Shown: piece after piece, positions 47,428-47,669 of the stretch | How the letters are laid out: every line of letters begins with the position of its first letter | How positions within the stretch are numbered: position 1 is the first letter of the stretch | Source: Eledone cirrhosa | Lineage: Eukaryota | Length of the DNA stretch: 64,000 nt | Reading direction: 5' to 3' | Assembly: GCA_964016885.1 (NCBI GenBank) | Contig: OZ024757.1 | Coordinates: forward strand, 39,370,001 to 39,434,000 | Program-made: the position numbers and the translations under genes | Notes under the pieces: generated by a model | Databases searched by the model: none | The model's input: only the letters and a program-made list of their open reading frames with translations | What the model was told of the DNA's origin: nothing

Positions 47428-47669
47428 ATACTATAAGGATAAGGAACAAGGATTCAGTTTTGCATAACAACATATTTAATAACATATTACATATGTTTCA
47501 CTATCGTTCAGCTCGAGGCAAGACCTATTATATATCTGACGACCTTTCGATTACAGGTTCGATCTGTAATAGGTTTTGCCTCGAGCTGATCGATAGTGAA
47601 ACATATGTAATATGTTATTAAATATGTTATGATGCAACGCTAAATCCTTGTTCCTTATCTTTATAGTAT
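47428..47669. repeat. Inverted repeat (~109-bp arms, ~24-nt spacer) ending in (TA)n
   Basis: atactataaggataaggaacaaggat...gtttcactatcgttcagctcgaggcaagacctatta versus taataggttttgcctcgagctgatcgatagtgaaac...atccttgttccttatctttatagtat. Confidence 0.92.
47530..47615 (+). ncRNA. Type I hammerhead ribozyme with intact core and GUA cleavage site
   Basis: Stem I atatat/atatgt; CTGACGA at 47536-42; branched stem II (ctttcga/tcgatag enclosing ttacag/ctgtaa); GAAA at 47598-601; palindromic stem III ACATATGT; GTA at 47607-09. Confidence 0.7.

What the first reader, a model, noticed from the sequence alone, without database searches (positions are those of the whole stretch)
47530..47615. Complete-looking sense-strand hammerhead ~230 nt upstream of the receptor's last exon
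Seen: intact core CTGACGA...GAAAC ATAT GTA with stem I atatat/atatgt, on the same strand as the iGluR pre-mRNA and near the 3' splice site at 47841. The inverted arm just upstream (47428-47536) is complementary to the ribozyme's 3' half and would sequester it. Inference: two mutually exclusive folds (self-cleaving versus long hairpin) could affect splicing of the C-tail exon. The non-canonical base of stem II (C..U rather than G-C) may reduce activity.
Basis: partly seen in the sequence, partly recalled or inferred. Interest (0 to 1): 0.72.

Follow-up and report, generated by a model that had tools for sequence, protein, structure and literature searches.

The report
Folded-back Penelope stump, silenced hammerhead
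The hammerhead motif in this glutamate-receptor intron is real, but it is the damaged end of an abundant Penelope-type jumping gene inserted next to its own mirror image, which is predicted to lock the RNA in a long hairpin, so it is likely an ordinary, inactive insertion and not a splicing switch.

Summary
A complete hammerhead core (47536-47609) lies on the sense strand 232 nt upstream of the last-exon acceptor, and an inverted arm covers its 3' half. The splicing-switch reading does not hold. Bases 47350-47669 are one copy of a dispersed repeat (185 exact core matches; 6,284 in the wider group of related families). Copies are 5'-truncated, sit in (TA)n, carry an optional 3' tail, often adjoin an inverted copy, and abut or follow an RT plus GIY-YIG ORF with Hydra-clade-like motifs. 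This is the published layout of Penelope-like element insertions. The C·U base of stem II is a family trait. This copy has lost the distal 5' strand of helix I and a conserved six-base helix II segment. The hairpin is predicted to beat the ribozyme fold by about 73 kcal/mol, and by about 59 when the cleavage site has just been transcribed. The one unusual feature belongs to the family: a long, bulged, covarying helix II. No RNA data were available. The scan found the same kind of stump before, in this genome and in others.

The parts
47320..47349 (.). (TA)n target tract, left flank
   Evidence: sequence; family copies are flanked by (TA)n
47350..47427 (-). 3' 'tail' extension, present on only one of the two copies
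   Evidence: follows the element end in some copies and is absent in others; matches the PLE tail concept, though longer than the usual 30-40 bp
47428..47531 (-). 5'-truncated copy of the element's 3' end (left arm); carries GAAAC-ATAT-GTA on the minus strand but no CUGANGA box
   Evidence: alignment to family copy L025; arm alignment
47530..47535 (+). inversion junction and 5' strand of the shortened helix I
   Evidence: window copy departs from family copies upstream of ATATCTGA; a 115-nt contig spans 47485-47599 with no difference (may be the assembly's own sample)
47536..47542 (+). catalytic box C3-A9 (CUGACGA)
47543..47597 (+). long bulged helix II (55 nt; 61 nt in 52 of 65 family copies), C·U at its base, 6-nt deletion removing the conserved AGAGUC segment
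47598..47609 (+). GAAA box, 2-bp helix III with palindromic loop, GUA triplet; predicted cut 47609/47610
   Evidence: short palindromic helix III is typical of dimer-dependent metazoan hammerheads
47567..47669 (+). right arm: sense copy of the element's 3' end, without tail; pairs with the left arm
47670..47689 (.). (TA)n target tract, right flank
   Evidence: sequence
47772..47841 (+). polypyrimidine tract and acceptor AG, outside the hairpin (174 nt from 47667 to the AG)
47842..48141 (+). coding part of the likely last exon of an iGluR (C-tail), in frame with exon 40397-40667
   Evidence: translation; upstream exon matches Lig_chan weakly; no RNA confirmation

Best explanation
The motif is the hammerhead-bearing 3' end of a dispersed Penelope-like retroelement family, inserted in a TA tract as a truncated copy plus an inverted copy, and the two arms are predicted to pair into a roughly 105-bp hairpin that likely keeps this damaged ribozyme off. 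Shown: family membership, 5' truncation gradient, tail, inverted layout, link to an RT and GIY-YIG ORF, loss of the distal helix I strand and of six helix II bases. Inferred: the element's enzymes made the insertion by target-primed reverse transcription; in the source element the hammerhead cleaves as a dimer; in this intron it is spliced out as a passenger with no selected role.
For: Repeat family: 1,978 first-look candidates; 185 exact core matches, 0 in the reversed control; 6,284 matches, control 1, for the wider long-helix pattern. Candidates fall 1,978, 309, 41 as the query moves 5' (queries differ in length). ORF link: L066 and L100 have the ORF inverted at the element's 5' break. Seven of 30 loci picked on the ORF end hold element pieces, inverted relative to the ORF. 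L137 is collinear: ORF end, UTR, hammerhead, tail, (TA)n. The EN fragment hits GIY-YIG (E 7e-4, below cut-off). A homologous ORF from a neighbouring family scores 0.93-0.96 with animal clusters, several of them carrying RVT_1 and GIY-YIG. The layout is as published. Folding penalty 59-73 kcal/mol. The 8 arm mismatches show no compensation: 3 G·U, 5 unpaired. The core is intact in 22 of 43 copies picked by upstream sequence, so an intact core needs no selection. About 3e-4 sense-strand intact cores are expected within 300 nt of any given acceptor, which is dozens genome-wide if there are 150-200 thousand introns (my assumption). The same intron holds other fold-back segments.
Against: No RNA was examined, so inactivity is predicted, not shown. 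Nearest-neighbour energies ignore tertiary contacts, proteins and A-to-I editing. No intact full-length element of this family was recovered; the ORF link rests on decayed copies. No orthologous locus could be tested for conservation. RNAalifold did not recover the hammerhead fold on its own.
Confidence: 0.87

Rival explanations
1. The ribozyme is silent, but the long intronic hairpin has a side effect on the host transcript: it would recruit ADAR and raise A-to-I editing in the nearby last exon, or alter use of the acceptor.
For: A near-perfect duplex ends 174 nt from the acceptor. An intronic duplex 150 nt from an exonic site induces editing in mammalian Gabra-3 (PMC3479170, abstract only). 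Extensive recoding in coleoid cephalopods (PMC10278661, search listing); the host is likely an octopus (inference).
Against: No compensatory arm changes. Such hairpins are common in this genome (8 head-to-head pairs among 100 listed rows, counted by eye). No editing data.
Confidence: 0.08
2. One reading: the RNA alternates between an active hammerhead and the hairpin, and cleavage modulates splicing of the C-tail exon.
For: Intact core, sense strand, 232 nt from the acceptor. An intronic-ribozyme precedent exists for CPEB3 (PMC10274809, start of abstract in listing).
Against: Penalty of 59-73 kcal/mol, and the arm is transcribed first. Distal helix I strand and conserved helix II segment are lost. 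Helix III is 2 bp and the core scan found no second sense-strand core in the window for a dimer. Metazoan PLE hammerheads tested as monomers were inactive (PMC4209133).
Confidence: 0.03
3. The element is a non-autonomous retrozyme or a fold-back DNA transposon and not the end of an autonomous Penelope-like element.
For: Most copies are short and lack an ORF; inverted arms resemble terminal inverted repeats.
Against: Arms vary in length with variable junctions, a tail sits on one side, truncation is graded from the 5' end, and ORF-linked copies exist. A tandem pair turned up only once among the long regions examined (L064).
Confidence: 0.02

Closest known systems
Insertion units of endonuclease-positive Penelope-like elements: pLTR, adjacent inverted 5'-truncated copy, optional tail (Craig et al. 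2021, PMC8557442; PMC3846280; PMC11167929)
   Same: Inverted head-to-head layout, tail on one copy only, 5' truncation, (TA)n target, hammerhead near the 3' end, RT with C-terminal GIY-YIG in longer copies.
   Different: Tail is about 78 bp, not 30-40 bp; this copy is a 320-bp stump without ORF.
Hydra clade of PLEs, including Hydra-1_Obim (Craig et al. 2021, section 11 and Files S1, S2)
   Same: CxCX5C linker, CxxC and CxH around conserved E and N, (TA)n targets, frequent U·U at the base of stem II.
   Different: The Hydra-1_Obim hammerhead has a different sequence; listed Hydra hammerheads have loop 2 of 3-10 nt, against 55-61 nt between A9 and G12 here. The element appears longer than 3 kb. 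No phylogeny was run.
Type I minimal or dimer-dependent hammerheads of metazoan PLEs (Cervera and De la Pena 2014, PMC4209133)
   Same: Type I topology, short palindromic helix III, enlarged helix II, many dispersed copies, some as opposite-strand pairs 100-700 bp apart.
   Different: Helix II is far longer, with bulges and a conserved AGAGUC segment; G10.1-C11.1 is kept in sister families (13 of 16, 9 of 10) but in 0 of 65 copies of this family.
Animal non-LTR retrozymes (bioRxiv 10.64898/2026.07.22.740005)
   Same: Type I hammerhead; related to PLE pLTRs.
   Different: Defined there by tandem units each with a hammerhead; this locus is a single inverted stump.

Membership tests
Type I hammerhead ribozyme | Core CUGANGA, GAAA and NUH triplet | tested here: met
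   47536-47542, 47598-47601, GTA 47607-47609
Type I hammerhead ribozyme | Helices I-III supported by covariation (family level) | tested here: met
   20 hand-picked copies from 7 subfamilies: 85.7% of cells paired against 30-37% in slid controls; 11 of 31 pairs change on both sides (4 of 6 in helix I, 5 of 17 in the helix II base). The structure was drawn by me, and that pair count does not beat the shuffles (51/500)
Type I hammerhead ribozyme | G10.1-C11.1 pair at the base of stem II | tested here: not met
   C·U here; 0 of 65 family copies have G-C. U·U is tolerated in natural hammerheads (PMC3088659 passage)
Type I hammerhead ribozyme | Active fold accessible in its transcript | tested here: not met
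   predicted penalty 59-73 kcal/mol with the arm
Type I hammerhead ribozyme | Self-cleavage | not testable with these tools
   needs an assay
EN+ Penelope-like element | RT plus C-terminal GIY-YIG ORF upstream of the hammerhead end | tested here: met
   in other copies of the family, all decayed: L066, L100, L137; not in the window copy
EN+ Penelope-like element | Inverted 5'-truncated copy adjacent to the 5' end | tested here: met
   window copy; 13 of 30 core-selected copies; 7 of 30 ORF-selected loci
EN+ Penelope-like element | Optional 3' tail on one copy | tested here: met
   47350-47427; tail present or absent across copies; about 78 bp
EN+ Penelope-like element | Partial-tandem direct pLTRs around an intact ORF | tested here: inconclusive
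   no intact full-length copy among 24 fetched long regions
Hydra clade | CxCX5C linker; CxxC and CxH around conserved E and N | tested here: met
   translations of L138 and L100 as they stand against the clade description
Hydra clade | DKT and RWK motifs, CCHH absent | tested here: inconclusive
   decayed L066 reads HKT at the likely place; RWK not seen; CCHH not aligned
Hydra clade | Placement in the clade by RT phylogeny | not tested
Non-LTR retrozyme | Tandem units, each with a hammerhead | tested here: not met
   single inverted stump at this locus; definition

The most novel reading that the evidence does not exclude
The inserted mirror-image stump has been co-opted as a regulatory hairpin for a glutamate receptor: it draws ADAR to the last exon or shifts its splicing, making Penelope fold-backs a large source of editing inducers in this animal. 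Separately, its parent families carry a hammerhead class with a 55-61-nt bulged helix II present in over 6,000 core-intact copies.
Probability: 0.07. Interest if true: 0.65.

Novelty: new member of a known kind. Interest (0 to 1): 0.2.

Why it matters
As judged, it matters little for the receptor: it is one of thousands of similar insertions. It is a caution that sense-strand hammerheads near splice sites arise by chance in this genome. The family-level ribozyme, with its long conserved helix II and a natural series of G-C, U·U, C·U and C·A stem II bases, is a convenient set for testing what PLE hammerheads tolerate. If such hairpins do induce editing of neighbouring exons, they would link transposon debris to neural recoding.

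Tried and rejected
Rfam: no hammerhead hit at either threshold; I attribute this to the long helix II (inference). RNA evidence: no RNA holder listed. Four runs of unrecorded kind from one study were laid; contigs covered only repeat parts, the exon had no cover, and nothing can be said on expression, editing or polymorphism. Alternative 'anti-core' helix: RNAalifold paired the CUGA box with a segment of helix II, with two double changes in one subfamily. I rejected it as a conserved switch because, of 24 CCGA-core rows among the 100 listed, only 9 have the compensating G, 13 have A and 2 other (counted by eye). A neighbouring ORF in L068 first looked like the parent but belongs to another family with its own end. 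Pfam and PDB sequence searches with that ORF gave 0 hits. Hydra-1_Obim is not this family. An element/splice-region duplex calculation gave only a fragmented, low-complexity pairing. Earlier findings by place and by sequence gave nothing relevant. Literature: searches for hammerhead + Penelope-like + octopus and hammerhead ribozyme + intron + cephalopod each listed only Craig et al. 2021; searches showed no title on this family; most subscription papers are not searched.

Full report
Observation. The core boxes, GUA triplet and six-base stem I are at the stated places: C3 at 47536, G12 at 47598, cut after 47609. The flanking exons read as an ionotropic glutamate receptor on the + strand, and the acceptor AG at 47841 is 232 nt downstream. 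The upstream arm pairs with 47561-47674. The element folds as one hairpin of -155.1 kcal/mol, z -25.5. A strict core pattern gave 0 matches in 100 simulations of the 31-kb non-satellite region against 2 observed. Rfam misses the motif.

What it is. The window lies in a 3.0-Gb genome, likely an octopus; this is my inference, and earlier scan notes say the same. Bases 47350-47670 are a dispersed repeat with 1,978 first-look candidates. An exact core pattern has 185 matches and the reversed control none. Copies sit in (TA)n. Many consist of one copy with an extra tail of about 78 bp and an inverted copy without it, joined at variable points. An inverted upstream arm was found in 13 of 30 copies picked by core pattern alone. 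Candidates fall from 1,978 to 309 to 41 as queries move upstream, as expected for 5'-truncated retrocopies, although the queries differ in length.

Link to a coding element. In L066 and L100 the element's 5' break abuts an inverted, decayed ORF of one family. Of 30 loci picked on that ORF's end, 7 hold element pieces inverted relative to the ORF. L137 is collinear on one strand: ORF end, UTR with nested insertions, hammerhead, tail, (TA)n. The ORF has RT-like segments, a CxCX5C linker, a GIY-YIG match (E 7e-4, below cut-off) and CxxC and CxH motifs around E and N. These fit the description of the Hydra clade (PMC8557442, section 11 read). The clade call is by motif only. The inverted 5'-truncated copy and the one-sided tail are the published layout of these elements (passages of PMC8557442, PMC3846280 and PMC11167929).

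The ribozyme at family level. Related families share a long helix II with a conserved AGAGUC segment; a pattern for this architecture with an intact core has 6,284 matches, control 1. On 20 hand-picked copies from 7 subfamilies, my drawn structure has 85.7% of cells paired against 30-37% in slid controls, and 11 of 31 pairs change on both sides; that pair count alone does not beat the shuffles, 51/500. RNAalifold did not find this fold unaided. In 43 copies picked by upstream sequence, core positions differ from the majority at 0.054 and other positions at 0.102, and 22 of 43 keep the core intact. This fits selection in the source elements and decay in the copies. The base of stem II is U·U in 25, C·U in 22 and C·A in 11 of 65 family copies, and G-C in 13 of 16 and 9 of 10 copies of two sister families. 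U·U at that position is frequent in published Hydra hammerheads (File S2 table read) and is tolerated in natural hammerheads (PMC3088659 passage). Helix III is two pairs with a palindromic loop, the dimer-dependent type. A monomeric metazoan PLE hammerhead showed no cleavage in vitro (PMC4209133, parts 1-2 of 4 read). In one PLE the hammerhead was not needed for insertion in vitro.

This copy. The sense copy begins four bases before the core, so the distal 5' strand of helix I is replaced by junction sequence. Six bases that include the conserved helix II segment are deleted. Forcing the hammerhead fold costs 7.5 kcal/mol without the arm, similar to intact copies (2.8-9.3). It costs 72.7 with the arm, and 58.8 on a transcript ending four bases past the cut. 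The arm is made first, so folding order also favours the hairpin (inference). The 8 arm mismatches show no compensation. The hairpin ends about 100 nt before the polypyrimidine tract. At the genome-wide density, about 3e-4 sense-strand intact cores are expected within 300 nt of any acceptor, which is dozens in total if there are 150-200 thousand introns (assumed). The same intron has further fold-back segments near 43550-43850 and 44250-44650.

Mechanism. Most likely (0.87) the element's RT and endonuclease inserted a truncated, folded-back end into a TA tract; the receptor pre-mRNA forms a long hairpin that silences an already damaged ribozyme and is spliced out. A side effect through ADAR editing or splicing is possible (0.08) and has a mammalian precedent (PMC3479170, abstract), but nothing here tests it. 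The alternating switch is unlikely (0.03). No RNA run was available.

Novelty. The insertion is a new member of a known kind. My searches did not find this family or its long helix II in print. Listed Hydra hammerheads have short loop 2; long helix II is listed for some plant PLEs, and split cores are mentioned for Naiads. Supplements of the bioRxiv retrozyme preprint (part 1 of 5 of the text read) were not seen. Earlier scan notes reached the same reading for similar stumps in this and other genomes. One of them gave me the Hydra lead, which I then checked; before it I had leaned to Nematis or Neptune. Interest 0.2.

Noticed in passing
window 34471-34572, minus strand: A second hammerhead core with a long helix II and palindromic loop III (TCGA), antisense to the receptor, inside another repeat (4 of 207 loci match 34290-34720, one at 94%).
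   Followed up: partly
window 38585-38785: Another fold-back stump with a one-sided extension in (TA)n; -100 kcal/mol hairpin; matches 37 of 207 loci.
   Followed up: partly
window 43550-43850 and 44250-44650: Two more palindromic non-TA segments in the same intron.
   Followed up: no
window 46850-47320: Adjacent segment whose 3' part is another repeat (8 of 207 loci).
   Followed up: partly
window 1-32700: A degenerate satellite of 10/20-bp units within the receptor locus, with strand flips near 8,200 and 32,100.
   Followed up: no
window about 35180-37960: A decayed non-LTR-retrotransposon-like ORF region in the preceding intron, judged by eye.
   Followed up: no
window 41552-46853: A 5.3-kb degenerate (TA)n array making up most of the last intron.
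   Followed up: no
G000 genome-wide: 6,284 core-intact hammerheads share the long helix II with AGAGUC; many subfamilies, some with a CCGA core and with A·A, C·A or G-C at the base of stem II.
   Followed up: partly
L068:7900-8020: A different PLE family with a long open ORF piece ends in another hammerhead-like motif with a CCGA core and an even longer helix II (read by eye).
   Followed up: no
L067:2129-3472, minus strand: A 448-aa open frame whose C-terminal part looks like an alpha-1,2-fucosyltransferase (recalled motif).
   Followed up: no
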